Positions 2,248 through 22,626 of a stretch of DNA of 64,000 nucleotides are shown here, piece after piece. Below the pieces are notes generated by a model, which was given only the letters and a program-made list of their open reading frames with translations, was not told the origin of the DNA and made no database searches. Source of the stretch: Alphaproteobacteria bacterium (GTDB lineage Bacteria; Pseudomonadota; Alphaproteobacteria; UBA7887); contig CBDCGL010000011.1 in NCBI GenBank assembly GCA_965216755.1, forward strand, positions 4,224,001-4,288,000, given 5' to 3'. Both the position numbers and the translations under genes were made by a program. Position 1 is the first letter of the stretch; each line of letters begins with the position of its first letter.

Positions 2248-3054
2248 TTACCACTCGAACGCTGGCGACTCGAACTCCAGGCCTTTGTTGTCGCGTGCGC
2301 GCACTTGGACGTTCTGCTTTAGCTCCGGCATGTCGACCGTGATGATCGGGTCAGAGGCCATGGCCGCCCGCGTTACAACTTCCATCACGACACCGTCGCT
2401 ATCCGTGACTTCGACCTTTTCGACGTAATACGCTTCTATCAGGTCACCATCGTCGCCGACGGCAAATCCGGTATCCATCGGGTGCACAATACGAAATTTC
2501 AGCCGCTCTTGCCCGTCGCGGTCATATTTGCGCACCGCAATGTCACCGAGCATCCGGTTGCCTTCGGAGTCGACGGTCCAATCGCCGGGTACCGAACAGC
2601 CGCCCGGGGTCAACACGTTCACCCACTGAGAGCCGATATGCCACACGCCGTCATCGGTTTTTACGCCGGCACGAACGGCGGTCGACATTTCCAGGCGAAT
2701 CTTAAGGCCGAGCGATTCGATCGACCGATGTGGCATCAGTCGGGCGATATGCTGGATCGGGTTATTTTCCGCCACAACCATGATTTCGGTGACGGTGCCA
2801 AGCTCAGGCGACAAATAAATGGCCAGCGGTACATCCGCGCTGTCTTCGACGTCTTGCGGCAAAATCACCTCAACGCCATCGTCGAAAATGACATCGCCAT
2901 CCGCGTAAAACGTCTCGCGCACGTCCGGCCAAACCGGTGTGTCCAGCGGGTCAACCAAGAAATTTTGCGCATTGGCCACGCTGCCAAATGTTGCCGGCAC
3001 CAAGATACCGCACATCAACCATCGTAAATGTCTGCGCATAAGTGTCACCCTCAA
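2248..3054 (-). CDS. Quinoprotein dehydrogenase-associated fused SoxYZ-like carrier
   Basis: Signal peptide; SoxY-like half (ENNPI, KIRLE) ending in GGCS, followed by a SoxZ-like half (HPMDTG, SDP). Confidence 0.85.
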   Translation of the reverse strand: MRVTLMRRHLRWLMCGILVPATFGSVANAQNFLVDPLDTPVWPDVRETFYADGDVIFDDGVEVILPQDVEDSADVPLAIYLSPELGTVTEIMVVAENNPIQHIARLMPHRSIESLGLKIRLEMSTAVRAGVKTDDGVWHIGSQWVNVLTPGGCSVPGDWTVDSEGNRMLGDIAVRKYDRDGQERLKFRIVHPMDTGFAVGDDGDLIEAYYVEKVEVTDSDGVVMEVVTRAAMASDPIITVDMPELKQNVQVRARDNKGLEFESPAFEW

Positions 3055-7513: not shown

Positions 7514-8692
7514 TTAGTACCTTCGAACTGCCCCTTTGTTTTCCAATGAACCAATCACGGGGACGCCGAGCACAGCTTCGGCGACTTCCGGTCGCTCCAC
7601 GCGGTGATTGAAATACTGCCGCAAAAAGGCGATCAGTAGCGATAGGACGAAGCCGCCGATCATGGCAATCTTTATGTAAAAGATGCGCGAGTGATTGGGC
7701 CGTGCAGGCGCCGAGGCATATTCGATGATCTGCACGTTGATGAGATTTTCGGGTACTGCCTCGCGGGCACGCTCTTGCTCGTAGCGGTCTCGATAGTCCA
7801 AAAAGATCGTCTCTTGAGCACTGATCCGGACGTTCAGATCGTTGATGGTTGATTGCCGTGACTCAAGCCCGCGCAAATCGCGGTTGCGCGCAGTCAGTTC
7901 GGTTTCCTGCGCGGTGATCGAATCAGTGATGGCCGTCACACGCGGATGGTCATTGGAATAAAGCGACAAAAGCTCCGATCGTTCGGTGTTGAGCGTTGCA
8001 ATGCGATCACGAATGCGGCCCACTTCCCGAAGCAGTTCGGCCTTGGCTTCTTCGGGCGAGGTCACCGAATGTTCGGCCATATAATCCGACAGCAACTGCC
8101 GCAGCCGATCCAATTCGATCGAGGCCTCCTCCAGCTTGGTCTCGAAATATTTGCTTGCGCCGCGCGAGTTCACCAACGAGCTGCGATAAGCGATATACGA
8201 CTCCGTCACCGCATTGACGATTAGCATGGCCAAGTTCGGATCACGACTGCCATAAGAAATTGTCATGATGTTCGAATCGACGATGGGTTTGATCTTGATA
8301 TCGTCGGTGAGATTCTCAATCCAGGCTTCGCGCGGCGGCACGGCCGTACGCAAGCCCAAGCGTTCCATGAGTGACGGCTTCTCGGCGCCCAACGGGTTGC
8401 CGCTGTCACCGGCATTCTGTGGAATGAATTCATCGACAACGGCTTCGATCACCGGTCGCGACCGAACAATCTCGATCTCGGTGTTCATGGCTTCAGCCAT
8501 TTCCGGAACGGTCGTCAGTGGCCCGGTGATAATCGGTGCTTTGGTCCGTTCAACCAAAACCGTGCCGCTGGCGATATAGGCGGGCGGCCTGAAATAGGTC
8601 AGTACGGTTACGATCGCGACCACAAACACCCACCAGCCGAGGATGCTGCTCTTATAGCGAAACAGAAACCATAGAATGTCGCGTTTGGTCAT
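7514..8692 (-). CDS. Polysaccharide co-polymerase / chain-length determinant (Wzz/GumC, Wzc N-terminal half)
   Basis: N-terminal TM, TEIEIVRSRPVIEAVV, coiled coils, C-terminal Pro-rich segment plus TM, LGVPVIGSL tail. Confidence 0.88.
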   Translation of the reverse strand: MTKRDILWFLFRYKSSILGWWVFVVAIVTVLTYFRPPAYIASGTVLVERTKAPIITGPLTTVPEMAEAMNTEIEIVRSRPVIEAVVDEFIPQNAGDSGNPLGAEKPSLMERLGLRTAVPPREAWIENLTDDIKIKPIVDSNIMTISYGSRDPNLAMLIVNAVTESYIAYRSSLVNSRGASKYFETKLEEASIELDRLRQLLSDYMAEHSVTSPEEAKAELLREVGRIRDRIATLNTERSELLSLYSNDHPRVTAITDSITAQETELTARNRDLRGLESRQSTINDLNVRISAQETIFLDYRDRYEQERAREAVPENLINVQIIEYASAPARPNHSRIFYIKIAMIGGFVLSLLIAFLRQYFNHRVERPEVAEAVLGVPVIGSLENKGAVRRY

Positions 8693-8784
8693 CGTGTCAG
8701 CTCTGGCTGTTTGTGCTTGCCTAAATCGAATTTACGGCATCGCCAATTCCGTCGTCTCGCTCGGCGCGGCGTTCTATTTGGCCA

Positions 8785-10005
8785 TCAATAGAAAAAACTC
8801 GGAATTGGGAAATCTCTCTTGTTCAAAACCACACTGCTCAACGTCAGCGTGGCGTTGCTCAGCTCGTCGCGTAGCCGCTCGATCGCTTGGACGGTCGTGC
8901 GTTGGGTATCGATCACCAAAATCACCTGTGTTGAAACACTGGCCCAACGATAAGGCGTGTCCGTGCTTAGGGCGCCTGCATCCACAACAACAACGTCATA
9001 GCGATTGCGTAAGTTCTCAAATGTATCCGACCAACCGTTTTCATAAGGAAAGCGGCCGTCCGCGCCATTGGCCAACGCCATCGCGTCGACGCCCCAATTG
9101 TCGATTTTAATGACGTTATCGTCATCGACGAGATTCGCCGGATCTTTGATCGGCGTCGGTCCACTACCCGGCAAACGCTGGGTCAGCCGATTGCCGTTTT
9201 CGGCCGCATCCACCAACAAGATTCGGTCGTCGCCGTTGCGTGCAAACGAGCGAGCCAGCCCACCGGCGACCGTTGACACGCCTTCGCCGGGCGTGCGGGA
9301 TGTCAGCACGATCACAATCGCGCCACGCCGCTCGCTGTAATCATTTGCCGCAGCAATTATCCGTAGCCGAATTGAATCAAAAACTTTCTCGATCCGCTGA
9401 ACGCGTCGGCTGACGCGACGCGGGCGCGACCGCTCCCGACGGCTGGGCGCAATCTTCTTGGTCCGCAGGTCAATTCCCGCTGCCGCTTCGGTGTCGCGGC
9501 TCCTTGTCGGTGTCGAAGGCACCTCGGCCACGAGTCCCTGACCGCTGCCGGGTTCGGTCGCGAACGGTTTGATCGTCGGACGTTCTGCCACCAACGGCTT
9601 GGTCGCGCGGCCATTGGGTTTTTCATCGCCCGACGCCGCAGTCGTCTTCAACTCAGGGCGCTCGGCAATCAGTGGTGTCGGTGCATCGCTACGCTGTTTT
9701 TTTTCAGGTTTCGTTTGGGAACTATCGAATTGCGCGAGAATGCGGGCAACGCGCAGATCGCCGGCTTGGCGCGATTTGTTGCAATTGGCGTGGACGAGCG
9801 CGAAGTTGGCAGGTTCGTCCTTACCGCCCTCGCGAATTGGTTCAACATGCTCGATATGCAGCGACGCGTCGTCGTTATCGGTCGCCTCGGCAACATCGAT
9901 CGGCTTGCCGCACAAATAACAGGTGCCGTTTTGGCGATTCGCTAGCCCTTGAACAAGGTCTTTGCGCTCAGATCCAGAAAGGCCTTTTAGGTACTGAGAT
10001 CCCAT
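8785..10005 (-). CDS. HNH endonuclease domain fused to a CpsD/CapB-type BY-kinase-like domain
   Basis: aa 1-95: CYLC...IEHVEPIREGGKDEPANFALVHANCN (HNH, Zn-binding). aa ~96-205: low-complexity linker. aa ~206-406: LTSRTPGEGVST, ILLVDA, YDVVVVDAG, VVLNKRDFPIP. One continuous ORF. Confidence 0.8.
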   Translation of the reverse strand: MGSQYLKGLSGSERKDLVQGLANRQNGTCYLCGKPIDVAEATDNDDASLHIEHVEPIREGGKDEPANFALVHANCNKSRQAGDLRVARILAQFDSSQTKPEKKQRSDAPTPLIAERPELKTTAASGDEKPNGRATKPLVAERPTIKPFATEPGSGQGLVAEVPSTPTRSRDTEAAAGIDLRTKKIAPSRRERSRPRRVSRRVQRIEKVFDSIRLRIIAAANDYSERRGAIVIVLTSRTPGEGVSTVAGGLARSFARNGDDRILLVDAAENGNRLTQRLPGSGPTPIKDPANLVDDDNVIKIDNWGVDAMALANGADGRFPYENGWSDTFENLRNRYDVVVVDAGALSTDTPYRWASVSTQVILVIDTQRTTVQAIERLRDELSNATLTLSSVVLNKRDFPIPSFFY

Positions 10006-10426
10006 CTGTCGCCCTTAGTCCACGCTCTTGCCGTCTTTTTTGAGCGTTTGTGTGTTCCACGCCGCAGCTTGTCGCCTCATGCCGCCATCGTTGCGGCGTG
10101 CACAAAGCGCCAGGCGCGGACGCCCCAATTCAATTTCGTCTCGGCGACAGCGATACCCCACCACCTTCGGCCGTAAGGGCTCGAAGACCGCTAACACCGG
10201 CATGTTTGCTTCTGCATATCAGAAGCTCAGCTTCGGTCGCCACGGCATAACTCTGGGCACTCCCAGTCTGTCATCCAATCGGCCCAACGATGACAAGCCG
10301 GCCCGTGCCTTCTTGCAACAGCATCCAGAGTATCGCCCAGGTTGGATGCTACCAGCAATTTGCTTGTTCTTATCGCACACCCTGCTACGCCGCACAATGA
10401 AACTAATCCGCAATAGTCCGACCAGA

Positions 10427-11458
10427 CTATGACGCCGACGGCGCGATTGGGCGGTCCAAAACCTGTGTTTGTGGGGGCCGTGATGATGTCGCCAGATGCC
10501 TTTCCCATTCCAGCGCCGTGCGCACGATATGTCCCAAATCATCATATTGTGGCTGCCAACCCAGCGTTTTCCTTATGCGGCTATTATCAGCGATAAGCGC
10601 TGGTGCATCGCCGGCGCGCCGCGCGTGTTCGTGCACCGGAAAATCGATCCCGGCTACCCGTTTCACTGCCGCAATTACCTCACGCACGCTGGCACCATGG
10701 CCGTAGCCACAGTTTAAAACTGCCGAATCACCGCCCCGGTCCAAATATTCCAAAGCATCAACATGGGCCTGCGCCAAGTCGTCGACATGAATATAGTCGC
10801 GAATACAAGTGCCGTCGGGCGTATCATAATCGGTGCCAAAAATAGCCATGTTCGGTCGTTTTCCGACAGCCACCTCGCACGCCACTTTGATCAGATGGGT
10901 CGCGTCGGCGGTTGCTTGCCCAACTCGGCCCATGGCATCCGCGCCGGCCACGTTGAAATAGCGCAAACTGATGAAGCGCAGCGCGGTCGCCGCAGCCAGA
11001 TCCATGATCATCCGTTCGCTCATCATTTTCGAGGCGCCATATGGGTTGATCGGCTGTAGCAGGGTATCTTCATCGATCAGTGAGGCCTCGGGTATGCCGT
11101 AGACGGCTGCGGTCGACGAGAACACGATCTTGCCGATCCCAAATCGGTCGCACAGGCGCAGCAGAGCCAAAGTATTGGCCGTATTGTTGTTGTAATATTT
11201 CAGTGGATCGCGAACCGATTCCGGCACGACGATATGGGCCGCCATGTGGCAGACGGCATCGAAACTCTGCGCGTCCAGCAGCTTCCCAAGGCGGGTCGCA
11301 TCGGCAATGTCACCCTCCACCAGGGTGCCTTGGGTCACCGCCCAAGCGTGCCCGGTCGAAAGATTGTCATAAGTGACGACTTCATGCCCGGCCTCTGCCA
11401 GACGAATGAGAATGTGGCTGCCGATATAGCCCGCGCCGCCGGTCACCAAAATACGCAT
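10427..11458 (-). CDS. galE: UDP-glucose 4-epimerase
   Basis: TGGAGYIGSH, FSSTAAVYG, YGASK, RYFNVAGA, DGTCIRDYIHV. Confidence 0.95.
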   Translation of the reverse strand: MRILVTGGAGYIGSHILIRLAEAGHEVVTYDNLSTGHAWAVTQGTLVEGDIADATRLGKLLDAQSFDAVCHMAAHIVVPESVRDPLKYYNNNTANTLALLRLCDRFGIGKIVFSSTAAVYGIPEASLIDEDTLLQPINPYGASKMMSERMIMDLAAATALRFISLRYFNVAGADAMGRVGQATADATHLIKVACEVAVGKRPNMAIFGTDYDTPDGTCIRDYIHVDDLAQAHVDALEYLDRGGDSAVLNCGYGHGASVREVIAAVKRVAGIDFPVHEHARRAGDAPALIADNSRIRKTLGWQPQYDDLGHIVRTALEWERHLATSSRPPQTQVLDRPIAPSAS

Positions 11459-11497
11459 GTCGCTATTCTCCGAAGACTTCTTTCGGCCCTGTTTGAC

Positions 11498-12679
11498 TTA
11501 GCGCGTGCGCCAAGCGGCGATCAGATCGCGCGCAGCGTTTTCCATTCGAAACGCCAATTTCGATCGCTGTAAAGTGAGCGCCGATCGGTATTCCTGGTCG
11601 GTGGCCAACCGCCGTTTATGAAACGTGTCTCCGTGCAGAAAATCGACAACCGCTGCGCCCGTGTGTAAGCCATGCACAATACCCAAATAGTCGCATAGCA
11701 AGCCGATGCTGACATCCTTGTGCGGGCTTCGCATAAGCCCCCACTGGTAACAGTAAATGCGACGGTCAAAGACGAAATTGTAAATGTAACCAATGGGTTT
11801 GGGCCCGGCACGTACACGCAAAAGCTGAATCTCACCTGCCGCGAAGCGCCGATTGACGAGATCAGCGTGGAATTGGCGAAACCAGGGGGATTCGAGCGAC
11901 GTCGAAAAGCCCCGATCTTGCCAATCCGCCAAATGAAGGTTCGCAAGTTCCGACAGATAGGTCTGCGCCTCGGGCAAGGTCGCGGCCGTGTCGATGCTGA
12001 GGGCGCCATTCTGTTCGACCATCTTCCGCGATTTGCGCAGATGACGGCGCGTCTTCTTGCCCAAAAGCGCCTCAAAATCGCCACCCGACGCGCGCACTTT
12101 GTCGAGGTCGACGATGTGGCTCGTCAGGTCGCGGGATACCAGGCCAGGCGCCTGCAACGCTGCGGCGTGTTGGACATAGTGGGGCGCCACGCCTGACAAC
12201 TGGATCTCGTCCCATTCGCCTTGTTGTAGGCCTGCCACCAGCCGCGTAATGGCGGCCCGCTCAATCGTCAGAGCGCCGACGTCTTGGGTCAGAAAGCCGT
12301 TATGCTCGATGGTTAGACGGTCGTACGGCATCGTCCCCGTCTCATGAAGATGGAGGCGACGAGACGAGATCAAACTGCGGCGCCGCAGGCGTTTTTCAAC
12401 AAGGATTCCCAGACCGACGGTCCGGTCCCGGTGATGCACACGCAAAACCAGCAGTCGCAACGCGGCCGGAATGTGTGCCAGCCAGCATTCGATCCAACTC
12501 CAGGACTGGAAAAAGCTGGGTTGGCCCTGGCATTGCAAGTTCTGCCAAGAATTGGCCAAGTCGCCAACATCCGTCAGCGGCATCAGCTCAGCATGCAGCT
12601 CATCCAGCGCAATAGTGGCCGGCCTGCTATCCGCTTGGGTGGTATCTCTTAGAACTGTGTTCGTATTCGAAACCATCAT
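11498..12679 (-). CDS. GNAT-family acetyltransferase (CelD/BcsL-like, polysaccharide-associated)
   Basis: FFQSWSWIECW, KKTRRHLRKSRK, YCYQWG, DFLHGDTFHKRRLA pattern; located in the polysaccharide export block. Confidence 0.8.
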   Translation of the reverse strand: MMVSNTNTVLRDTTQADSRPATIALDELHAELMPLTDVGDLANSWQNLQCQGQPSFFQSWSWIECWLAHIPAALRLLVLRVHHRDRTVGLGILVEKRLRRRSLISSRRLHLHETGTMPYDRLTIEHNGFLTQDVGALTIERAAITRLVAGLQQGEWDEIQLSGVAPHYVQHAAALQAPGLVSRDLTSHIVDLDKVRASGGDFEALLGKKTRRHLRKSRKMVEQNGALSIDTAATLPEAQTYLSELANLHLADWQDRGFSTSLESPWFRQFHADLVNRRFAAGEIQLLRVRAGPKPIGYIYNFVFDRRIYCYQWGLMRSPHKDVSIGLLCDYLGIVHGLHTGAAVVDFLHGDTFHKRRLATDQEYRSALTLQRSKLAFRMENAARDLIAAWRTR

Positions 12680-12934
12680 ATTAGATAATGGGGTCGCCGC
12701 TTGGCGCGGACGAGCCGCCGCGGTGCTTGGAATACCTGATGTTGTTAGTCCCCAACGGGGTCAGTGTCTGACGAGTGACGTAATATGGCAAGAGCCCTTG
12801 CCACGAACGCGCCCGTTATGGGCCATTTTGGGCGGCGTGGTGTGCTGAGCCAGGCCCCGACCGCAGTTTGCGACTTGGCCTTGGATGGCCGCGTGCGGTG
12901 TCAGTTAACTTTTTGAAATGATTGCGATTTGACC

Positions 12935-12970
12935 GAAAAATAAGGTCCGGCACAGTTGCTGTGCCGGACC
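12935..12970 (-). terminator. Rho-independent terminator of wza
   Basis: 12-bp stem ggtccggcacag/ctgtgccggacc (12944-12970) followed on the minus strand by TTATTTTT. Confidence 0.8.
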
Positions 12971-12995
12971 CATATGATGAAGCCGTTTGTTCGGT

Positions 12996-14018
12996 CTAGT
13001 CGTTTAAGTCATAGGTCAAGCCGAAGCCGGCGTTGAGGCTGAACGGCAGCATGTTCTTGATGTACTGCTCGATCCACAGATTCGCCTCGGCGATGCCGGA
13101 CGGCGGAACCACAACGATATCTTGCGGTATCAACTGAAAACTGGCGCCGTTCGGCGTGCCGCCGTCCGGCGACTTGCGCAAATTGAAACGCCAGTGGCTG
13201 TGCGTGCCGTCGTTGTTGAAACGTATTACCCGTACATCGCGGGGCGACGCCGTTGGCAAATAGCCCCCGGCGGCAGCGATGGCCATAAACGGATTGAAGG
13301 GGCGCGTATATTCGACGCCAATCGGGTTGACCACTTCGCCAACCACGTAGACCAGAGGAATGGCGCGCTCGGTGAGATTGACTGTCGCCTCGACCCGGCC
13401 GCCAAATTCACGTTCATAGGCGCTTCGCACGTCGGTCTGAACGTCGACGAGCGCCCTGTTGGCCATAATCGGGTCGATATAGGGCAGGGACAACATGCCC
13501 GAATCGGAGACCACAACGCTAAGCGGCAAATTGCCAAATCCCGAATCCAAGCCCATCAAACGCTCAAGCCGGCGATCGCCCTGTTCCACGACAACTGCGA
13601 CCTGTGACGTGCGAATCCCCCGGCTCCGGTAGGCGCTGGCCAGGTCTCGGCCAAGCGCATCGACCGATTTGCCGGCCGCCCGCACGCTGCCGACAACCGG
13701 CAGTGATATGTGCCCGTCTGGCAGGACAACGATGCCCGTGGTAGTCAGATTGTCGTGCTCCGCGACGCTGACCGCGAGCACGTCATATACGTTGATGAGA
13801 TAGCGCTGAGTCTCGACCTCGGTGTTGCGGTAATAGCGCACTTCCAGCCGGTCGCCGGGTCTGAGATTAAGCGACTGTGCGGCAGCATCATTGGCCGCCA
13901 TGGCTGATTCCGGAGAGCTCGCCGCGCCGCGTGGCGCCGGCGGATAAGCCTTAGTGGCGCAAGCCCCTAATAGCAAGGCTGAACATAAGGCTATCGCCTT
14001 GATTGTAAAGGAATGCAT
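12996..14018 (-). CDS. wza: Polysaccharide export lipoprotein (Wza/OPX family)
   Basis: Lipobox LLLGAC; PES motif VLPDGHISLPVVGSVRAAG; SLBB domain VYVVGEVVNP...AIAAAGG; C-terminal amphipathic helix. Confidence 0.88.
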   Translation of the reverse strand: MHSFTIKAIALCSALLLGACATKAYPPAPRGAASSPESAMAANDAAAQSLNLRPGDRLEVRYYRNTEVETQRYLINVYDVLAVSVAEHDNLTTTGIVVLPDGHISLPVVGSVRAAGKSVDALGRDLASAYRSRGIRTSQVAVVVEQGDRRLERLMGLDSGFGNLPLSVVVSDSGMLSLPYIDPIMANRALVDVQTDVRSAYEREFGGRVEATVNLTERAIPLVYVVGEVVNPIGVEYTRPFNPFMAIAAAGGYLPTASPRDVRVIRFNNDGTHSHWRFNLRKSPDGGTPNGASFQLIPQDIVVVPPSGIAEANLWIEQYIKNMLPFSLNAGFGLTYDLND

Positions 14019-15123: not shown

Positions 15124-16659
15124 TTAGCCGTTCGGCGGATTTCGGTCACCGTCACTGGGTGCGCTCTTGTGCGTGGCGAGCCAAGTGCGGGCTTGGCTTT
15201 GGGCACTGTCGCGCTGGGCGGCCGACAACAGCGGTGCGCTCTTGGCGATATTCCGAGTGGCGCGGTTGCGCACCGCGCTGAGGTCGTCAGCCAGCGCGGC
15301 GGCGATATGCCACCATTTGTTCGCGCGCACGGTGTCTTGTGCGACGCCATGGCCCTTCAAGTACAAGACGCCAAGATTATGCTGCGATTCGACATGACCT
15401 TGCTCGGCGGCACGACGATACAGTCGGGCAGCGGCCCGATAGTCTTGGCCAACGCCTTGACCAAGATAGTAGAGTGTGGCGAGCGCGTGCTCGGCCTGCG
15501 GAAGGCCCACGTTCGCGGCGCGTTGGAACCATTGCGCGGCGACACTTGGATCGGCTGGAACACCCTGGCCATTTTCATAGAGCCCGCCGAGATTGTATTG
15601 GGCGATAGCCGATCCTTGTTCGGCGGCTTGGCGATACCAAAACGCCGCCGCGGCGAGGTCCCGGTCGACGCCATGTCCCAACGCATGCATGACGCCGAGA
15701 AAGTTTTGCGCGGTCGGATCACCGTCCTGCGCGAGCAACTCAAAAGCGCGGATCGCGCGGCCATGGTCTTGGGAATGATAGGCCGCGAAAGCATCGTCAA
15801 GGCCCTTGTCCCGGTCCTCTTTGCCCTTTGCGCCCCGGCCCGGCCCAGGTCCAGCGACCGCTGCCCCAGTCGCAGGCAAAGGCGACGAAGACGTCGTAGC
15901 GCCGTGCGTTGCCGTGACGGCGACGGCGTTGTCCGGTAAAGCCAGCACGCACGCGGCGCCGCGCGTCTTGAGTTGTGCGCAAATATGGCGTGCGCGCCGC
16001 TCATCGAGCGGCCCGGCGCGAACCCTGTGAATCTGGAAATTATTCGAGATCCCGTCACGCACGAATGTCTCGATTCCGGCGAACAGGTCGGCGTGCTTTT
16101 CCACCAATCCGCGTCGCAGATTTTCTGCTGGCGCGCGACCTGATCTGAATGCGCCCAATTGGATTTCGTAGCGCGGTGCCGCACGCGGCTGCGGCGGCGG
16201 TTCTTTCAGGCTTGGTCGTTCGGCCGGGACAGAACTGGACCGGGCAATCGTCGGCATTTGCCGGGCGTGCTGTGGCAAATTTCCTGGCGTCGGGATCGCG
16301 GGCGGCGCGGCGATCGAGTTCTTGCGGATACGCGTCCGTTGGAGCAAGTCAAGGACGTTGCGATGGCCCCACACGGCGGCCATCGTGGCAGGTGTCTCAC
16401 CAAATTGGTTGGTCGCTTCGACTTCGGCGCCATGGGCAATCAAGATGCCGACAATTTCGGTAAAGCCACTGGACGCTGCGACGTGCAAGGGCGTGTTGCC
16501 GTCGTGGCTCCGTGAGTCGACCGGGAGCCCAGCGCTGATAAGTTCGCGCACCCGGTCGGCATCGCCGGCGCGGGCGGCATCATGCAACGGGCCGGCTCGC
16601 GCCGCCGAAATCGTCAGTATGATTACCCACAGAAAGATGCCGTACCGAATCATTCGCAC
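15124..16659 (-). CDS. Secreted ankyrin-repeat / SPOR / Sel1-repeat protein
   Basis: Signal peptide; ankyrin repeats (GPLHDAA, GNTPLHVAA, GETP); SPOR domain (YEIQLGAFRS...HRVRAGP...C..LK.RG..C); 4 Sel1 repeats. Confidence 0.85.
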   Translation of the reverse strand: MRMIRYGIFLWVIILTISAARAGPLHDAARAGDADRVRELISAGLPVDSRSHDGNTPLHVAASSGFTEIVGILIAHGAEVEATNQFGETPATMAAVWGHRNVLDLLQRTRIRKNSIAAPPAIPTPGNLPQHARQMPTIARSSSVPAERPSLKEPPPQPRAAPRYEIQLGAFRSGRAPAENLRRGLVEKHADLFAGIETFVRDGISNNFQIHRVRAGPLDERRARHICAQLKTRGAACVLALPDNAVAVTATHGATTSSSPLPATGAAVAGPGPGRGAKGKEDRDKGLDDAFAAYHSQDHGRAIRAFELLAQDGDPTAQNFLGVMHALGHGVDRDLAAAAFWYRQAAEQGSAIAQYNLGGLYENGQGVPADPSVAAQWFQRAANVGLPQAEHALATLYYLGQGVGQDYRAAARLYRRAAEQGHVESQHNLGVLYLKGHGVAQDTVRANKWWHIAAALADDLSAVRNRATRNIAKSAPLLSAAQRDSAQSQARTWLATHKSAPSDGDRNPPNG

Positions 16660-17545: not shown

Positions 17546-19126
17546 TCATGTTACAAGAGCCGCCAGAGTCTGGGTATGATCGGCTTGGTCCGCGGGTTTG
17601 TCCCACCGGATTCGGTGAATGCGGGGGAAACGCAGCGCCAGGCCGGACTTGTGCCGTTTCGATTGGTGAACCGAATCAAACGCGACCTCCAGAACAAGTT
17701 CGGCCGTAACGGCGCGGACCGGGCCAAATCTCTCGACTGTGTGCTGACGCACCCATTTATCCAATTGGCGTAGTTCTTCGTCAGTGAAGCCGAAATAAGC
17801 TTTGCCGACCGGCACCAGTTCCTTGCCGCCGTCTGCGGCCGTCCGCCAGCAACCAAACGTGTAGTCCGAATAGAATGATGATCGTTTGCCATGGCCGCGT
17901 TGGGCGTACATCAACACGCAATCAGCGGTGAGCGCATCGCGCTTCCATTTAAACCACGGACCTTTCGGGCGTCCCGTCACGTACGGGCTCTGGCGGTGTT
18001 TCAGCATCAAGCCCTCGATGCCGTTGACCCGTGTCTCTGCGCGCAATCCGGCCAACGCATGCCAGTTGTCAAAGGGAACCAATGGCGAAATATCCATTCG
18101 CGACGGTTGCATTTGGGCATACCACTGTTCCAGTTGCGCGCGCCGTTGTTCAAATGACTGGCCGCGCAGGTCTGCATCACCCCAAAACAGTATGTCGTAG
18201 AGTCGCACATGGGCGGGCAATTCATCGCGCATGCGCGCCGACACGCGCTTGCGGCCAAGCCGTTGTTGGAGATCGTTGAACGGTGCAGGGGTGCCGTCAT
18301 GGGCGACCAGAAGTTCGCCGTCCAGAACGGCATCGAAACACAGCACTTCGACAATATCGGGGAACGCGTTGCTGATATCGTCGCCCGCCCGCGAAAAGAC
18401 GCGCGCGGCGTCGGCCCGCCCCACCAGCTGTACGCGGATGCCGTCCCACTTCCACTCGGCCAGATAGTCGGCGGGATCAAGATTGGCGAGATCTTTTTCA
18501 GCCAATGGATTGGCCAACATCAACGGCCGAAACACCGCGTGATCTGCGATGTCGGGCCGGCCGCCGCGCCCCTCCAGCCAGGCAAACAGTGGCGTGTAGG
18601 GGGGCGCCAGGCCGTGCCAAATTTCTTCGATGTCGGCAACCGGCTTATTGCCAAACATGGCCAGGCTGGTCTTGGCCAGGCGTGAGGAAATGCCGACGCG
18701 CAAGCCGCCGGTCATCAGTTTCAACAAGGCAAATCGGCCACTTGCGTCAAGCTCATCGAGCCAGCCTTCAATGAGAGCCGCGACCTCGGTTCGTTTGGCG
18801 CCCTGCAAGGCCTCAACCACGGTCGCCAAGCTGGGTGGATTTCGCGTTGTCGCGCCAGGTGGCCATATCAATGCGGCTGTTTCCGCCAAGTCTCCGACGA
18901 AATCGTAAGACAGCGCAAATAGCTCGGCCGCAACGCGGGTACTGACAAGCTCTCGGATGACGCGTGGCGTCGCATGGCCCAATCTCAGCTCGCGGGTCAA
19001 AATCGCCAGTCCATAGCCACGGTCCGGGTCGGGTGTGTCCGCGAAATACCTCCTGAGCAAGCCGAGTTTGGCGTTGCGTCCCGGCGTAAAAACCAAGCGT
19101 TCCAGCAATGCGGCGAATGGCTTCAT
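17546..19126 (-). CDS. ATP-dependent DNA ligase (DNA-damage-response type)
   Basis: EWKWDGIRVQ adenylation motif, LDGELL, EGLMLK, WFKWK, LRFPRI. Confidence 0.95.
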   Translation of the reverse strand: MKPFAALLERLVFTPGRNAKLGLLRRYFADTPDPDRGYGLAILTRELRLGHATPRVIRELVSTRVAAELFALSYDFVGDLAETAALIWPPGATTRNPPSLATVVEALQGAKRTEVAALIEGWLDELDASGRFALLKLMTGGLRVGISSRLAKTSLAMFGNKPVADIEEIWHGLAPPYTPLFAWLEGRGGRPDIADHAVFRPLMLANPLAEKDLANLDPADYLAEWKWDGIRVQLVGRADAARVFSRAGDDISNAFPDIVEVLCFDAVLDGELLVAHDGTPAPFNDLQQRLGRKRVSARMRDELPAHVRLYDILFWGDADLRGQSFEQRRAQLEQWYAQMQPSRMDISPLVPFDNWHALAGLRAETRVNGIEGLMLKHRQSPYVTGRPKGPWFKWKRDALTADCVLMYAQRGHGKRSSFYSDYTFGCWRTAADGGKELVPVGKAYFGFTDEELRQLDKWVRQHTVERFGPVRAVTAELVLEVAFDSVHQSKRHKSGLALRFPRIHRIRWDKPADQADHTQTLAALVT

Positions 19127-20142
19127 GCGCTGTCTTCGTCAAAGCCAATCAGCGACAGCGCTTCCGCATCGAGACCACGGGATCGCGCGTGAAAGACCAG
19201 CGCATCCTCACGGCCATGGGTGACCCAAACACGTGGCGCGGCAACATCGTCGAGCGTCGCGGTCAATTCATCCCAATCGGCATGATCTGAGATCACCATC
19301 GGCAATTCGACGCCGCGTTGGCGGGCGCGTTGGCGGACACGCAACCAACCAGATGCGGCGGCGATGACCGGATCGGGCAAGTCGCGCGCCCAGCGATCCG
19401 CGGTCGCCGACGGTGGGCTCAGCACGATCGCACCGGCCAGATCGTGCTTGTTGGCGGCGGTGACGGGCTTCAAAGCGCCCAGCCCAATCCCCTGCCTGTG
19501 GTAGAGCTCGCACAATGAGACAAGTGCCCCGTGTAACCAAATTGGTCGGTCATAGCCGGCTTGGCGCAACAACGCGATCACCCGTTGGCATTTACCCAAA
19601 GCGTAGACGCCGACCAAATGGCAGCGGTCCGGTTGGTTCCGAACCGAGTCCAACAGCTTGCCGATCTCCCCGCGGTCGGGTGGATGGCGAAACACGGGCA
19701 GGGCGAACGTGGCTTCGGTGACAAACAGGTCGCATGTGACCGGCTCGAACGGCGCGCATGTCGGATCGGGGCGCCGTTTGTAATCGCCAGAGACCACCAC
19801 CCGAAAGCCGCGATAGTCCAGAACAACCTGTGCGCTGCCCAATATGTGGCCAGCCGGTTCGAGTGTCACCGTCACATCGCCGACTTTCTGCGGCTTGCCA
19901 TAAGCGCAGGTCTCGAATTGGTGGGCGGCATCGTCGCCATAGCGGACCCGCATGATGGCGGCGGTCTCGGCGGTGCACAGCACGGCCCGATGGCCACGTC
20001 GCGCGTGATCGCCATGGCCATGGGTGACCACGGCGCGCGCGACGGCCGGTTGCGGGTCGATATAGAATTGACCCGGCGCGCACCAAAGCCCTGCTTTGGT
20101 GTTGATCAGCCAAGCCTTGGGATCGGATGACGTGTCGAACAT
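19123..20142 (-). CDS. Ligase-associated DNA-damage-response exonuclease (MBL/beta-CASP fold)
   Basis: THGHGDHAR, AGHILGSAQ, SGDYKR, TEATF, SDHADW, WVTHG; ATGA overlap with the ligase gene. Confidence 0.92.
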   Translation of the reverse strand: MFDTSSDPKAWLINTKAGLWCAPGQFYIDPQPAVARAVVTHGHGDHARRGHRAVLCTAETAAIMRVRYGDDAAHQFETCAYGKPQKVGDVTVTLEPAGHILGSAQVVLDYRGFRVVVSGDYKRRPDPTCAPFEPVTCDLFVTEATFALPVFRHPPDRGEIGKLLDSVRNQPDRCHLVGVYALGKCQRVIALLRQAGYDRPIWLHGALVSLCELYHRQGIGLGALKPVTAANKHDLAGAIVLSPPSATADRWARDLPDPVIAAASGWLRVRQRARQRGVELPMVISDHADWDELTATLDDVAAPRVWVTHGREDALVFHARSRGLDAEALSLIGFDEDSA

Positions 20143-20184
20143 TGCGCACAGTATAGGCGGTCGCCGCGGGGGGCGCTTTGGGGT

Positions 20185-22626
20185 GTGGTCGTGACAGCTA
20201 AGCTGCCCGAGCCATTTCGTCGCTGGTTCGCCGGCCAGGGCTGGAAACCCCACGCCCATCAATTGGCGGTTGCTGCGACCGCCCAATCCAGGGGTGACGT
20301 GTTGCTGGTCGCGCCGACCGGTGGCGGCAAGACTTTGGCCGGCTTCCTACCAAGCTTGCTGACGCTCGCCGATGCTTCCGACACTGGTCTGCATACGCTC
20401 TATGTGTCACCGCTAAAGGCACTGACCGTAGACGTGCATCGCAATCTGCTGCAACCGATTGCGGATATGGCGTTGCCGATAAACGCCGAGACGCGCACCG
20501 GCGACACACCGCAGGCCCGCCGGCAGCGGCAACGGCGCCATCCACCGCACATTCTCCTCACCACGCCCGAATCCTTGGCGTTGATGTTGTCTTATGTCGA
20601 GGCCCCAGAGATCTTCCAGGGGCTGCGACAGGTTGTCGTCGACGAGTTGCACGCGATTGCAGGCACCAAACGCGGTGATCTTCTGGCCTTGGGGTTATCG
20701 CGCCTCAACGGTTTGGCCCCGGAGCATAGGCGGATAGGCTTGTCGGCGACCGTCGCCTGGCCCGACGATTTGCGCGCTTGGCTGGCCCGCGATGGCGACG
20801 GCGGCGACGTCCACATGATCAGCCATGACGACAGTGTGCCACCCGAGATCTCGATTCTCACACCCGATACACGTATTCCCTGGCGCGGCCACATGGGGGC
20901 CCATGCGATGGAAGCCGTGTACAAGCAGATCCAGGGTGCCGCGACGACCATCGTTTTCGTCAACACGCGGGCCCAGGCCGAGATCGTGTTTCGGCATTTG
21001 TGGGCACTCAATGACCAAAACCTGCCGATCGGCCTACATCACGGCAGTTTGGCGGTCGAACAACGACGTCGCATTGAGGCTGCGATGGCAGCCGGCAAAC
21101 TCCGCGCCGTGGTGGCGACTTCGTCATTGGATTTGGGCGTCGATTGGGCCGCGGTGGATTTGGTGATCCAAGTCGGCGCACCCAAGGGCGTCAGCCGGCT
21201 TATTCAGCGGGTCGGTCGCGCTGGCCATCGCCTGGACTGTCCGAGCCGCGCGGTATTGGTTCCAGCCAATCGCTTTGAAGTCCTGGAGTGCCGCGCCGCG
21301 GTCGATGCCGTGGCCGCGCGCACCCTGGACGGCGATCCGCCGCGGCCGGGCGGATTGGACGTGTTGGCACAGCACATATTGGGCACCGCGTGCTCGGTGC
21401 CCTTCGATGCCGATGCGTTGTATCGCGACGTGACCCAGGCCGCGCCCTATGCCGCTCTCAGCCGCACGGATTTCGATGACACACTGGCATTTGTCGAAAA
21501 TGGTGGATACGCGTTGAAAGCCTACGAACGCTATCGACGGATCCGCAAAGGCAAGGATGGTCGTTACCGGATTACCTCGGCGCGCGTCGCGCGTCTCTAT
21601 CGCATGAATGTCGGCACGATCGTCGAGGCGGTGACGATGAAAGTGAAGCTCAAAAAGGGCCGGTTCCTCGGCGAGATCGAGGAATATTTTATTCTCGGCC
21701 TGGTGCCCGGCGATACCTTCGTGTTTTCCGGCCAGGTCTTGCGCTTTGTCGGCTTGCAGGAAACCCACGCATTGGTCGAGCGAGCCACCGGTGGCGATCC
21801 GAAAGTGCCGGCCTATCAGGGTGGACGTTTGCCGTTGACCACCCACTTGGCGGATCGGGTGCGGGCGATGCTGGCCTCCCCCAAGAACTGGTCCGATCTT
21901 CCAGAACCGGTCAATGAGTGGCTGCGGTTGCAGCGCGCGCGGTCGACCTTGCCCAAGGCCAAGGGATTGCTGGTTGAGACCTTTCCGCGTGCGGACAAGG
22001 CGTATCTGGTCGCCTATTGCTTCGAAGGCCGTAACGCGCATCAAACACTCGGCATGCTGCTCACCCGTCGCATGGAGCGCGCCGGATTGGCACCGCTAGG
22101 CTTTGTCGCGACCGACTATGTGTTGGCGATTTGGAGCGTTCATCCGGCGACCGAGATCGAGTCTTTGTTCGACGAATCGATGCTCGGTGATGATCTGGAG
22201 GAATGGATGGACGAATCATCGATGCTCCGTCGCACGTTTCGCAATGTCGCCGTGATCGCCGGACTTATCGAGCGCCAGCATCCGGGGGAGCGGAAAACCC
22301 GGCGTCAGGTGACCTTCAACGCCGATCTGATCTACGATGTCTTGCGGCGCTACGACCCCAATCACATACTGCTGCGCGCCACGCGCGCGGATGCCGGCAG
22401 CGGATTGACCGATATCCGCCGCGTGGCCGGCATGCTGTCACGCATTCGGGGGCGTATCGTGCATCGCGAATTGGACAAAGTTTCGCCGTTGGCGGTTCCT
22501 GTGTTGTTGGAAATCGGCAAGGAAACCGTGTATGGCGCCGCATTTGATCATTTGCTCGACGAGGGCGAGCAACAACTGATTGACGAAGCATTGGCATTGC
22601 CGGGCCGGGCACGGGCATCCGCGTGA
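20185..22626 (+). CDS. Ligase-associated Lhr-like DEXH-box helicase
   Basis: APTGGGKT, SPLKAL, VDELH, GLSAT, HHGSL, QRVGRAGH. Confidence 0.93.
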   Translation: MVVTAKLPEPFRRWFAGQGWKPHAHQLAVAATAQSRGDVLLVAPTGGGKTLAGFLPSLLTLADASDTGLHTLYVSPLKALTVDVHRNLLQPIADMALPINAETRTGDTPQARRQRQRRHPPHILLTTPESLALMLSYVEAPEIFQGLRQVVVDELHAIAGTKRGDLLALGLSRLNGLAPEHRRIGLSATVAWPDDLRAWLARDGDGGDVHMISHDDSVPPEISILTPDTRIPWRGHMGAHAMEAVYKQIQGAATTIVFVNTRAQAEIVFRHLWALNDQNLPIGLHHGSLAVEQRRRIEAAMAAGKLRAVVATSSLDLGVDWAAVDLVIQVGAPKGVSRLIQRVGRAGHRLDCPSRAVLVPANRFEVLECRAAVDAVAARTLDGDPPRPGGLDVLAQHILGTACSVPFDADALYRDVTQAAPYAALSRTDFDDTLAFVENGGYALKAYERYRRIRKGKDGRYRITSARVARLYRMNVGTIVEAVTMKVKLKKGRFLGEIEEYFILGLVPGDTFVFSGQVLRFVGLQETHALVERATGGDPKVPAYQGGRLPLTTHLADRVRAMLASPKNWSDLPEPVNEWLRLQRARSTLPKAKGLLVETFPRADKAYLVAYCFEGRNAHQTLGMLLTRRMERAGLAPLGFVATDYVLAIWSVHPATEIESLFDESMLGDDLEEWMDESSMLRRTFRNVAVIAGLIERQHPGERKTRRQVTFNADLIYDVLRRYDPNHILLRATRADAGSGLTDIRRVAGMLSRIRGRIVHRELDKVSPLAVPVLLEIGKETVYGAAFDHLLDEGEQQLIDEALALPGRARASA

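What the first reader, a model, noticed from the sequence alone, without database searches (positions are those of the whole stretch)
8785..10005. HNH nuclease domain fused to the BY-kinase-like subunit of a polysaccharide export system
Seen: one uninterrupted 406-aa ORF. The N-terminus has a complete-looking Zn-binding HNH module (C29, C32, E52-H53, N67, H72, C75, N76). A ~110-aa linker leads to a CpsD/CapB-like P-loop domain. There is no internal ATG before the kinase-like domain, which favours a true fusion. The gene occupies the usual kinase position, just upstream of the Wzz/Wzc-N gene and downstream of wza-GNAT-galE. Known: BY-kinases oligomerise on the co-polymerase at the inner membrane; I know of no described member carrying a nuclease domain. 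Inference: a membrane-tethered nuclease at the capsule/EPS export pore (for example defence against capsule-targeting phage or incoming DNA), or a nucleic-acid-binding domain linking polysaccharide export to the chromosome or cell cycle.
Basis: partly seen in the sequence, partly recalled or inferred. Interest (0 to 1): 0.8.

Follow-up and report, generated by a model that had tools for sequence, protein, structure and literature searches.

The report
HNH nuclease fused to export pseudokinase
One bacterium has a gene that joins a small DNA-cutting module to the inactive-kinase scaffold of a sugar-polymer export machine; the combination was found nowhere else in the databases searched, and whether it has a use is unproven.

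Summary
The 406-aa ORF at 8785-10005 (-) is real and uninterrupted. Contigs from three sequencing runs cover the junction with no differences.

- **aa 1-100:** a complete HNH module. It passes the Pfam cut-off, keeps its Zn and catalytic residues, and gives a confident fold model resembling Cas9 HNH domains.
- **aa 101-199:** a basic linker predicted to be disordered.
- **aa 200-406:** homologous to BY-kinase domains, but from a large subfamily with Val in place of the Walker A lysine and no tyrosine cluster. It is a BY-pseudokinase-like scaffold, not a kinase.

In 9 of 9 related loci this domain's gene sits directly upstream of a Wzz-like PCP gene, as it does here.

No other protein has both halves, in a scan of 1.84 billion representatives and in two word-index searches. 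The HNH part is only the first ~100 residues of a widespread ~540-aa HNH family. Similarity to that family ends at an A8 run.

A peptide repeat in the linker is conserved through synonymous codon changes, which argues that HNH and linker are translated together.

Best reading: a genuine fusion, so far seen only in this genome, that tethers an intact-looking nuclease module to the export scaffold. The HNH function is unproven. The main rival is an accidental in-frame remnant, with the pseudokinase started at internal GTG159/162.

The parts
8785..10005 (-). Whole ORF, 406 aa plus stop: HNH, linker and BY-pseudokinase-like domain
   Evidence: Open frame. Single copy in its own genome. Contigs of runs X1 and X2 span it with 0 differences.
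10012..10016 (-). Shine-Dalgarno-like AAGGG, 6 nt upstream of the ATG at 10005
   Evidence: Read directly from the sequence.
9706..10005 (-). HNH module, aa 1-100 (Pfam match aa 29-79 = 9769-9921). Zn ligands C29, C32, H72, C75; catalytic E52-H53, N76; structural N67.
   Evidence: PF01844 at 33.9 bits against a cut-off of 21.4. 45-52% identity to the N-termini of the ~540-aa HNH family. AF2 pLDDT 74-97 by 10-residue block (nine of the ten blocks 85 or more), with two strands followed by a helix. Foldseek top hits are Cas9 HNH domains at E 8e-4.
9697..9704 (-). A8 homopolymer (T8 on the + strand) at codons 101-103, where similarity to the HNH family ends
   Evidence: A run one base shorter would stop the frame at aa 112; one base longer, at aa 106. 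The 5.0-Mb genome holds only 80 A/T runs of 8 or more. X4 record 11, X1 and X2 cover it without gaps.
9409..9705 (-). Linker, aa 101-199: rich in R/A/P/T/E/K, net charge +8, predicted disordered
   Evidence: pLDDT 48-69 and no secondary structure. Composition. No tblastn hit in 34 related loci.
9646..9684 (-). Linker peptide repeat, copy 1 (aa 108-120)
   Evidence: Its best 10-mer pair with copy 2 shares 7 of 10 residues, a level reached by 5 of 2000 shuffles. All 8 identical residues use different codons.
9568..9606 (-). Linker peptide repeat, copy 2 (aa 134-146)
9517..9537 (-). Partial third copy of the repeat (aa 157-163). It overlaps the candidate internal starts GTG159 (9529-9531) and GTG162 (9520-9522).
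   Evidence: An AGGGA lies 3 nt before GTG159.
8788..9408 (-). BY-pseudokinase-like P-loop domain, aa 200-406. Walker A-like G240-T245 (9271-9288) has Val243 at the lysine position. The protein ends F-P-I-P-S-F-F-Y.
   Evidence: 38-50% identity to stand-alone proteins of 205-270 aa.
7514..8692 (-). Wzz-like PCP partner gene (392 aa): two hydrophobic segments, no P-loop domain
   Evidence: Pfam Wzz and NCBIfam EpsF / chain-length-determinant matches, all below cut-offs. Hydrophobic segments at aa 13-40 and 335-361. A homolog lies directly downstream of the C-domain gene in 9 of 9 related loci. 44% identity over the full length to the L010 partner.
10427..14018 (-). Upstream genes: galE-like epimerase (10427-11458), Acetyltransf_6 GNAT (11498-12679) and Wza-type exporter (12996-14018). 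A terminator-like hairpin at 12943-12971 follows wza.
   Evidence: Pfam; terminator scan.

Best explanation
This is a genuine gene fusion, so far seen only in this genome.

Origin (inferred): the first ~100 codons of a gene of a widespread ~540-aa nuclease family (HNH followed by a ParB/Srx-like part) were joined, at or near an A8 run, to the gene for the stand-alone BY-pseudokinase subunit of a two-part PCP-2 polysaccharide export module.

Product (inferred): a soluble cytoplasmic protein of about 44 kDa.
- The C-terminal domain has the BY-kinase fold but lacks the Walker A lysine and the tyrosine cluster. It acts as a phosphorylation-independent scaffold, docking on the short cytoplasmic tail of the adjacent Wzz-like PCP, as proposed for EcpK/EpsV and HfsB/HfsA.
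- This holds an intact-looking HNH module at the inner face of the membrane, on a ~100-aa basic disordered tether.

Shown: the ORF, the domains, the degenerate P-loop, the conserved pairing with the Wzz gene, the uniqueness of the architecture in the databases searched, and a protein-level repeat in the linker.

Inferred: that the full-length protein is made, that the C-domain binds the PCP, and that the HNH still binds or cuts DNA. What the HNH contributes is open. I rate a selected role at roughly one in four.
For: - **ORF and reads:**
- **HNH:** above the Pfam cut-off. Of the 15 columns invariant among 11 relatives, the query keeps all. D52 is only 'nearly invariant' and is E here. The fold model is confident for aa 1-100 and resembles Cas9 and Cap5 HNH domains.
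- **C-domain:** homologous to solved BY-kinases, with Val aligned to the Walker A Lys. Val is typical of the subfamily: 80 of the 102 sequences where the regex found a motif have Val, and 1 has Lys (this set includes near-identical cluster members).
- **Pairing:** a Wzz-like gene lies directly downstream in 9 of 9 loci with a 38-47% identical C-domain.
- **Translation of the linker:** the repeat at aa 108-120 / 134-146 is reached by 5 of 2000 shuffles, and all 8 identical residues use different codons. That indicates selection on the peptide in this frame. The repeat lies upstream of every internal start except TTG31 and TTG119, so HNH and linker appear to be read as one.
- **Start and composition:** a Shine-Dalgarno-like AAGGG lies 6 nt before M1. 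The hexamer coding score of the HNH part is 0.316, at the 26th percentile of this genome's real genes; 3% of open shadow frames score higher. GC shows no anomaly.
- **Literature:** the concept of BY-pseudokinase / PCP-2 pairs comes from PMC12004946 (abstract and passages).
Against: - **A singleton:** no second protein has both halves. The gene has no match in 0 of 22 genomes of the same family. There is therefore no conservation evidence for the fusion.
- **Truncated HNH:** it is a fragment of a family with a tightly conserved length. 2481 proteins score E <= 1e-10; the 120 listed are 409-573 aa, mostly 535-546.
- **Substituted residues:** two columns invariant in the long family are changed here, D to E at 52 and K to R at 79.
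- **Possible internal start:** GTG159 or GTG162 would give a 245-248-aa protein, the size of the closest stand-alone relatives (235-268 aa).
- **Weak coding signal in the linker:** the score for aa 100-195 is ambiguous at 0.168, the 7th percentile of real genes; 15% of open shadow frames score higher. For aa 160-200 it is -0.04.
- **No expression data.**
- **Read support is not independent:** all supporting runs come from one study, and three of them from one sample that may be the assembly's source.
Confidence: 0.5

Rival explanations
1. The fusion is accidental. A deletion or rearrangement left the first ~100 codons of an HNH gene in frame with the pseudokinase gene. The working product is the ordinary ~245-aa pseudokinase, started at GTG159 or GTG162. 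The HNH-linker extension is a neutral or decaying passenger, whether or not some full-length protein is made.
For: - The architecture is unique.
- The HNH is a truncated piece of a ~540-aa family, and no trace of the rest exists anywhere in the genome.
- Similarity ends at a slippage-prone or recombination-prone A8 run.
- Internal GTG codons would give family-typical lengths, and an AGGGA lies just upstream.
- The coding score of aa 160-200 is non-coding-like.
- Upstream ORF extensions are common in this kind of GC-rich DNA. In L010, for example, the C-domain ORF runs 190 nt upstream of the start of similarity.
Against: - 100 codons of HNH are intact, with every Zn and catalytic position kept.
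- HNH codon usage is like that of native genes.
- The linker repeat, conserved through synonymous changes, lies upstream of GTG159/162.
- M1 has the better-spaced ribosome-binding site.
- No promoter-like site was found inside the gene on its strand (a weak test).
Confidence: 0.3
2. The fusion is a working membrane-proximal nuclease. The ring-forming pseudokinase/PCP assembly controls clustering of the HNH modules, so DNA cleavage is coupled to the state of the polysaccharide export machine, for example as defence against phage or incoming DNA. Alternatively, the domain links export to the chromosome.
For: - The HNH looks catalytically competent.
- Its weak best matches in the defence library are Septu PtuB HNH models, at E 4e-5 to 0.04.
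- Its parent family pairs the HNH with a ParB/Srx-like domain. That rests on weak fold matches only (E 0.013-0.06, none at E <= 0.001) and on a D-G-Q-H-K motif. As I recall it, this arrangement resembles modification-dependent restriction enzymes. The GmrSD paper appeared only in a search listing.
- Another member of the pseudokinase family, P0061, carries two Cro/YdaS-type HTH units (PF14549, E 6.7e-11). DNA-binding add-ons therefore recur in this family.
Against: - It is a singleton with no conserved partner genes for defence.
- The neighbours are export and sugar genes, a TetR/MMPL pair and DNA-repair genes.
- The PADLOC and fold matches are weak and generic for HNH domains.
- There is no evidence of regulation or of nuclease activity.
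Confidence: 0.07
3. The A8 run at the domain boundary is a slipped-strand switch. In frame it gives the fusion. One base more or less gives a free ~105-111-aa HNH protein plus a separately started pseudokinase.
For: - The run sits exactly at the boundary, and shifts stop the frame at aa 106 or 112.
- Runs of 8 or more are rare in this genome: 80 in 5.0 Mb.
Against: - No length variant appears in any contig of the three runs that cover the tract. Contigs do drop rare variants, so this is weak evidence.
- A8 is short for a phase-variable tract.
- The run is made up of Lys codons in a Lys/Glu-rich stretch.
Confidence: 0.05
4. The continuous frame is a sequencing or assembly artefact, from a homopolymer miscount or a chimeric join.
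For: - The genome is dominated by one 4.85-Mb contig.
- A homopolymer lies at the junction.
Against: Contigs assembled separately from runs X1 and X2 span 8700-10450 with 0 differences and 0 gaps, and X4 spans the A8 run. These runs come from one sample and may be the source data.
Confidence: 0.03

Closest known systems
[quoted passage not shown]
   Same: - A BY-kinase-fold protein that lacks catalytic residues and a Tyr-rich tail.
- It is encoded with a PCP-2/Wzz-like membrane protein that has no kinase domain of its own, in a polysaccharide export setting.
   Different: - Here an HNH module and a ~100-aa linker precede the pseudokinase.
- This subfamily keeps a recognisable P-loop (G-E-G-V-S/T-T), a Walker B-like Asp and a conserved C-terminal Tyr. 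EcpK is reported to lack all the motifs.
- Sequence orthology to EcpK or HfsB was not tested.
Canonical BY-kinases (VpsO 6u1q, CapB in 2ved/3bfv, Etk 3cio, Wzc 7nhr)
   Same: Homologous domain (profile E 1.3e-20 down to 7.6e-6), and the same association with a PCP.
   Different: - Walker A Lys is replaced by Val.
- The second Asp and the Arg of Walker A' are absent in the query (V-D-A-A-E-N).
- There is no Tyr cluster.
- Scores are far below the NCBIfam cut-offs: 43 against 230.65 and 42.5 against 108.05.
- The gene order is pseudokinase first, then PCP.
- The genome separately encodes three canonical Wzc-size proteins.
Uncharacterised ~540-aa family of HNH plus a ParB/Srx-like part (P0065 and more than 2,400 relatives; sources call it only 'HNH endonuclease')
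   Same: The first ~100 residues share 45-52% identity, including the N-terminal helices, C-x-x-C, D/E-H, N, H-x-x-C-N and the following helix.
   Different: The query lacks everything after about aa 100: the N-R-x-P-N-L-G-D motif, the D-G-Q-H-K domain and the helical C-terminus. No remnant of these is present in the genome.
HNH effectors controlled by an oligomerising partner or domain (Septu PtuA/PtuB, CBASS Cap5). This is an analogy only, partly recalled.
   Same: An HNH nuclease joined to, or working with, a P-loop or oligomerising module. There are weak PtuB model hits, and Cap5 is among the fold matches.
   Different: - There are no sensor or ATPase motifs of those systems.
- The partner here is an export scaffold with a dead P-loop.
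- No defence context was seen.

Membership tests
HNH endonuclease (Pfam PF01844, beta-beta-alpha-metal fold) | Profile match above the curated cut-off | tested here: met
   33.9 bits against a cut-off of 21.4, aa 29-79. The genome scan gives 37.9 bits.
HNH endonuclease (Pfam PF01844, beta-beta-alpha-metal fold) | Catalytic His preceded by an acidic residue, structural Asn, and metal-binding Asn/His | tested here: met
   E52-H53, N67 and N76 align with invariant or nearly invariant columns. Position 52 is E where relatives have D.
HNH endonuclease (Pfam PF01844, beta-beta-alpha-metal fold) | Zn site C-x-x-C ... H/C-x-x-C | tested here: met
   C29, C32, H72 and C75 are present and conserved. The assignment of ligands is by analogy, from recall.
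HNH endonuclease (Pfam PF01844, beta-beta-alpha-metal fold) | Two strands plus a helix, similar to solved HNH domains | tested here: met
   AF2 model: E49-53, E68-72, H73-78; pLDDT 74-97 by 10-residue block over aa 1-100, nine of the ten blocks 85 or more. Foldseek best hits are Cas9 HNH domains at E 8.3e-4, TM 0.45-0.57 on the target. This is a prediction, not a solved structure.
HNH endonuclease (Pfam PF01844, beta-beta-alpha-metal fold) | Metal-dependent nuclease activity | not testable with these tools
   Needs purified protein.
~540-aa family of HNH plus a ParB/Srx-like part (P0065-like) | Full architecture: HNH, then the N-R-x-P-N-L-G-D motif, then the D-G-Q-H-K domain and a helical C-terminus | tested here: not met
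   Only aa 1 to about 100 align. There is no remnant of the rest in the gene or the genome.
Canonical BY-kinase | Homology to the BY-kinase catalytic domain | tested here: met
   Family profile against PDB: VpsO 1.3e-20, CapA/CapB 1.4e-15, Etk 8.3e-9, Wzc 7.6e-6.
Canonical BY-kinase | Walker A with the catalytic Lys | tested here: not met
   G-E-G-V-S-T; Val243 aligns with the Lys of VpsO. Val in 80 of the 102 relatives where the regex found a motif, Lys in 1.
Canonical BY-kinase | Walker A' (Asp-x-Asp-x-Arg) and Walker B Asp | tested here: inconclusive
   Walker B-like V-V-V-V-D-A-G is present. Walker A' reads L-L-V-D-A-A-E-N, so the second Asp and the Arg are missing; relatives mostly read V-D-A-D.
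Canonical BY-kinase | C-terminal tyrosine cluster | tested here: not met
   A single Tyr (Y406) at the very end. The next Tyr upstream is Y352.
Canonical BY-kinase | Curated family cut-offs (TIGR03018, TIGR01007) | tested here: not met
   43 bits against 230.65, and 42.5 against 108.05.
BY pseudokinase / PCP-2 two-part module (EcpK/EpsV, HfsB/HfsA type) | BY-kinase fold without the residues needed for catalysis or Tyr phosphorylation | tested here: met
   The definition is taken from PMC12004946.
BY pseudokinase / PCP-2 two-part module (EcpK/EpsV, HfsB/HfsA type) | Encoded with a PCP-2 that lacks its own kinase domain | tested here: met
   P0002 has Wzz/GNVR-type matches, two hydrophobic segments and no P-loop family. 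The adjacency holds in 9 of 9 related loci.
BY pseudokinase / PCP-2 two-part module (EcpK/EpsV, HfsB/HfsA type) | Direct binding to the cytoplasmic tail of the PCP, and a requirement for polysaccharide production | not tested
   No complex prediction was run. Experiments are needed.

The most novel reading that the evidence does not exclude
An HNH nuclease tethered to the ring-forming pseudokinase/PCP scaffold of a polysaccharide export machine. Assembly or disassembly of the export complex would cluster and switch on the nuclease at the inner membrane, for instance when a capsule-targeting phage or incoming DNA perturbs the complex. That would be a previously unknown link between envelope polysaccharide export and DNA cleavage or defence.
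Probability: 0.07. Interest if true: 0.85.

Novelty: new variant of a known kind. Interest (0 to 1): 0.45.

Why it matters
BY-kinase-fold subunits of polysaccharide export machines are known as kinases or, more recently, as inactive scaffolds. None has been reported with a nuclease domain, and none was found here: not in a scan of 1.84 billion representative proteins, not in two word-index searches of a 5.8-billion-cluster collection, and not in three literature searches.

If the HNH is active in this setting, the protein would place a DNA-cutting or DNA-binding activity at the cytoplasmic face of an export complex. That would give a simple construct for asking whether export machines communicate with DNA.

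If it is only a passenger, the gene is still a clean natural example of how a domain fragment is captured at a homopolymer run and kept in frame.

The work also shows that the 'kinase' here belongs to a large, little-described subfamily that lacks the Walker A lysine and is always paired with a Wzz-like gene.

Tried and rejected
1. **Insertion element in the linker - rejected.** Run X3 showed contig branches at 9571/9575 that I first read as a 5-bp target duplication of an insertion. The two loose ends map exactly to two unrelated places of the same genome, and both joints read G-A-T-C twice in a row. These are proximity-ligation junctions at a GATC site, not biology.

2. **Combined alignment A3 - not used.** This was the full protein with both sets of relatives. 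MAFFT misaligned the HNH relatives: identity fell from about 45% to about 21%. The two halves were handled separately instead.

3. **Frame posterior from the six-frame hexamer model - not relied on.** It favoured the gene's frame across most of the linker, but it penalises frames that contain stops. I replaced it with the comparison against open shadow frames, which is ambiguous for the linker.

4. **Remnants of the ~540-aa HNH family elsewhere in the genome:** none found.

5. **The same HNH family in relatives:** 0 of 300 other genomes of the class at E <= 1e-10.

6. **Plasmid and phage collections.** With aa 1-110 as query, only generic HNH matches at under 60% identity were found (listed rows 29.6-40.0%), and none covered 80% of the query: 19 plasmid records and 113 phage records.

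7. **ESM Atlas.** The nearest clusters are BY-kinase-like proteins of 215-265 aa with scores of 0.81 or less. These are leads only, and none carries an HNH.

8. **Other scans.**
   - Rfam: 0 matches in the window.
   - tRNA scan of 1-30000: 0 genes.
   - GC profile: no island signal.
   - The linker repeat motif appears in no other of the 313 stored proteins, and in no locus outside the window's own genome (61 loci held, 4 of them from this genome).

9. **Expression.** No RNA holder was listed among the sequencing runs, so nothing can be said about expression.

10. **Literature.**
    - 'BY-kinase' + 'HNH': 1 paper, unrelated by its title and abstract.
    - 'tyrosine kinase' + 'polysaccharide co-polymerase' + 'nuclease domain': 0 papers.
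    - 'HNH' + 'DGQHR': 3 papers, seen as a listing only.
    - Supplements of PMC12004946 were not seen. They may hold alignments relevant to this subfamily.

11. Complex prediction was not used.
Full report
**1.

The minus-strand ORF 8785-10005 is open for 406 codons. Pfam places an HNH domain at aa 29-79 (E 3.5e-8, 33.9 bits against a cut-off of 21.4). NCBIfam gives weak partial matches of aa ~203-399 to tyrosine-autokinase models: 43 bits against a cut-off of 230.65, and 42.5 against 108.05.

- a Wzz-like gene 92 nt downstream (7514-8692);
- galE-like (10427-11458);
- an Acetyltransf_6 GNAT (11498-12679);
- a Wza-type exporter (12996-14018).

The cluster is small. Further out lie a TetR/MMPL pair, an Ank/Sel1/SPOR protein and a ligase-Lhr repair cluster, not glycosyltransferases.

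The 'no internal ATG' remark is correct up to aa 309. In-frame TTG/GTG codons do exist at aa 119, 138, 139, 159 and 162.

**2. The sequence is not an assembly slip, as far as the data allow**

An A8 run sits at codons 101-103. A run one base shorter would stop the frame at aa 112; one base longer, at aa 106. I therefore checked public runs.
- Four runs of one study hold the stretch.
- Contigs of X1 and X2 each span 8700-10450 with 0 differences and 0 gaps.
- X4 spans 9477-9991.
- These three runs are from one sample, possibly the assembly's source. They confirm the letters but are not an independent population.
- X3, from a second sample, covers 8700-9600 identically. Its branches at 9571/9575 proved to be proximity-ligation joints at a GATC site.

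**3. The C-terminal domain is a BY pseudokinase-like scaffold, not a kinase**

Its closest relatives are stand-alone proteins of 205-270 aa at 38-50% identity.

A profile of ten of them hits solved BY-kinases:

| Structure | E-value |
|---|---|
| VpsO | 1.3e-20 |
| CapA/CapB | 1.4e-15 |
| Etk | 8.3e-9 |
| BceF | 8.8e-9 |
| Wzc | 7.6e-6 |

The Walker A lysine of those kinases aligns with Val. Val occupies the lysine position in 80 and Lys in 1. That set includes near-identical cluster members, and some non-Val hits are spurious regex matches.

Other features of the query:
- It lacks the second Asp and the Arg of Walker A'.
- It has no tyrosine cluster, only a conserved terminal Tyr in an F-P-I-P-x-F-L-Y ending.

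In 9 of 9 loci with a 38-47% identical C-domain (L010, L018-L025), a homolog of the Wzz-like gene follows directly. In 2 of them a wza precedes. The Wzz-like protein has two hydrophobic segments and a ~31-aa C-terminal tail, and it is conserved end to end with the partner in L010 (44% identity).

This matches the recently described class of PCP-2 proteins that work with a BY pseudokinase: EcpK/EpsV and HfsB/HfsA (PMC12004946; I read the abstract and passages). The genome also has three canonical Wzc-size BY-kinases elsewhere.

**4. The HNH part is intact-looking but is a fragment of a larger family**

About sixty of the 150 listed hits of the exhaustive scan match only aa 1 to ~107. One search counts 63 HNH-like proteins among all those held. 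Their full-length form is a ~540-aa protein:
- P0065 has nine cluster members, all 541 aa.
- 2481 proteins score E <= 1e-10; the 120 listed are 409-573 aa, mostly 535-546. Sources name them only 'HNH endonuclease'.

The query shares 45-52% identity over its first ~100 residues with this family, then diverges. It lacks the N-R-x-P-N-L-G-D motif, the D-G-Q-H-K region and the rest. No remnant of those parts occurs anywhere in the genome.

A model of P0065 (mean pLDDT 86.6) gives only weak fold matches for its middle part, to ParB-N and sulfiredoxin folds (E 0.013-0.06, none at E <= 0.001). The 'ParB/Srx-like' label is therefore a lead, not a result.

Within the fragment, every Zn and catalytic position is kept. 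E replaces the usual D at 52, and R replaces the invariant K at 79. AF2 with 34 sequences folds aa 1-100 confidently (pLDDT 74-97 by 10-residue block) with two strands followed by a helix. Foldseek's best hits are Cas9 HNH domains, with Cap5 and a nicking HNH further down.

The family was not found in 300 other genomes of the class.

**5. The architecture was found in no other protein**

- Every listed hit of the no-index scan of 1.84 billion representatives matches one half only. The four multi-stretch hits have no HNH.
- The word-index search found 5 proteins, none fused to an HNH.
- The search for longer forms of the C-domain found 12 proteins, none with PF01844. Of these, 8 carry Wzz and/or GNVR domains.
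- Of all stored proteins, only P0001 hits both halves.
- The HNH and the linker hit 0 of 34 related loci.
- No genome of the same family has the gene: 0 of 22.

**6. Is the whole ORF translated?**

The linker (aa 101-199) is basic (net +8), rich in R/A/P/T, and predicted to be disordered.

Its hexamer coding score is ambiguous:

| Region | Score | Percentile of real genes | Open shadow frames scoring higher |
|---|---|---|---|
| HNH, aa 1-96 | 0.316 | 26th | 3% |
| Linker, aa 100-195 | 0.168 | 7th | 15% |

The most useful clue is a peptide repeat. Residues 108-120 and 134-146 share 8 residues (7 of 10 in the best 10-mer pair), and aa 157-163 form a partial third copy. That level is reached by 5 of 2000 shuffles of the linker. 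All 8 identical residues are encoded by different codons.

That pattern points to selection on the peptide in this frame. The first copy lies upstream of all internal starts except TTG31 and TTG119. M1 has an AAGGG 6 nt upstream. I therefore think HNH and linker are read together, and with no stop the frame runs on into the pseudokinase.

This is inference from one genome, and no expression data exist. Against it, GTG159 or GTG162 (AGGGA 3 or 12 nt upstream) would give a 245-248-aa protein, the size of the closest stand-alone relatives.

**7. Origin**

Similarity to the HNH family fades between about aa 96 and 106, exactly at the A8 run. Such runs are rare in this genome: 80 of 8 or more in 5.0 Mb. 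The simplest history is that a ~540-aa HNH gene next to the pseudokinase gene lost everything after codon ~100 in a deletion or illegitimate join at the A-rich site, which left the frames continuous. GC content and codon usage show nothing foreign.

**8. Function**

Shown by homology and context: the C-domain is the cytoplasmic partner of the Wzz-like PCP in an export module with Wza.

Inferred: it acts as a phosphorylation-independent scaffold, and thereby places the HNH near the inner membrane on a long flexible tether.

What the HNH does there is unknown. It may be a neutral passenger, a DNA-binding handle, or an active nuclease gated by clustering. Two observations keep the bolder reading alive. 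PtuB-type defence models give weak hits. Another family member, P0061, has two Cro/YdaS-type HTH units inserted in the pseudokinase. Neither observation tests that reading.

**9. Verdict**

It is a new variant of a known kind, with moderate interest because it is a singleton without conservation or expression evidence.

Noticed in passing
window 9697-9704: An A8 run (T8 on the + strand) sits exactly at the boundary between the HNH module and the linker. A one-base change in its length would uncouple the two domains (stops at aa 106 or 112). The genome holds only 80 A/T runs of 8 or more in 5.0 Mb.
   Followed up: partly
window 9571-9575 (run X3): Contig branches in one public run join this GATC site to two distant places of the same genome, through duplicated G-A-T-C junctions. 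This is the signature of a proximity-ligation library, not a structural variant.
   Followed up: yes
protein P0061 (487 aa, from the representative library): A relative of the same lysine-less pseudokinase family carries two Cro/YdaS-type helix-turn-helix units (PF14549, E 6.7e-11) inserted between its P-loop and the rest of the domain. It is a second case of a DNA-binding add-on in this family.
   Followed up: partly
proteins P0065 and P0195-P0313: A large (more than 2,400 hits at E <= 1e-10), length-conserved ~540-aa family. It has an N-terminal HNH, an invariant F-D-G-Q-H-K motif and a helical C-terminus. Only the HNH part has Pfam, NCBIfam or PADLOC matches. The fold model gives weak ParB-N/sulfiredoxin-like matches. 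It appears to be uncharacterised.
   Followed up: partly
C-domain relatives (alignment A1): The stand-alone BY-kinase-like proteins of 205-270 aa form a populous subfamily. It has G-E/D-G-V-S/T-T instead of a Walker A lysine, and a conserved F/Y-P-I/V-P-x-F-L-Y ending. It is always followed by a Wzz-like gene, and some members are fused to Wzz/GNVR (P0011, P0161, P0162).
   Followed up: partly
window 17546-23312: A DNA-repair-type cluster: an ATP-dependent DNA ligase (17546-19126, -), a metallo-beta-lactamase-fold protein (19123-20286, -), an Lhr-type helicase with a DEAD-associated domain (20185-22626, +) and a metallophosphoesterase (22623-23312, +).
   Followed up: no
window 15124-16659 (-): A 511-aa protein that combines ankyrin repeats, a SPOR domain and four Sel1 repeats.
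   Followed up: no
window 12943-12971 (-): A strong terminator-like hairpin (13 pairs, 9 of them G-C, followed by a T run) directly after wza. This suggests wza is transcribed separately from the GNAT-galE genes and the fusion gene.
   Followed up: no
own genome C11:1149304-1149906, 1891965-1892549, 670050-670634: Three canonical Wzc-size BY-kinase ORFs (760-777 aa), all above the TIGR01007 cut-off. The window's locus is therefore a fourth, non-canonical export module in this genome.
   Followed up: no
window 2248-3054 (-): A single ORF with SoxY and SoxZ domains fused.
   Followed up: no
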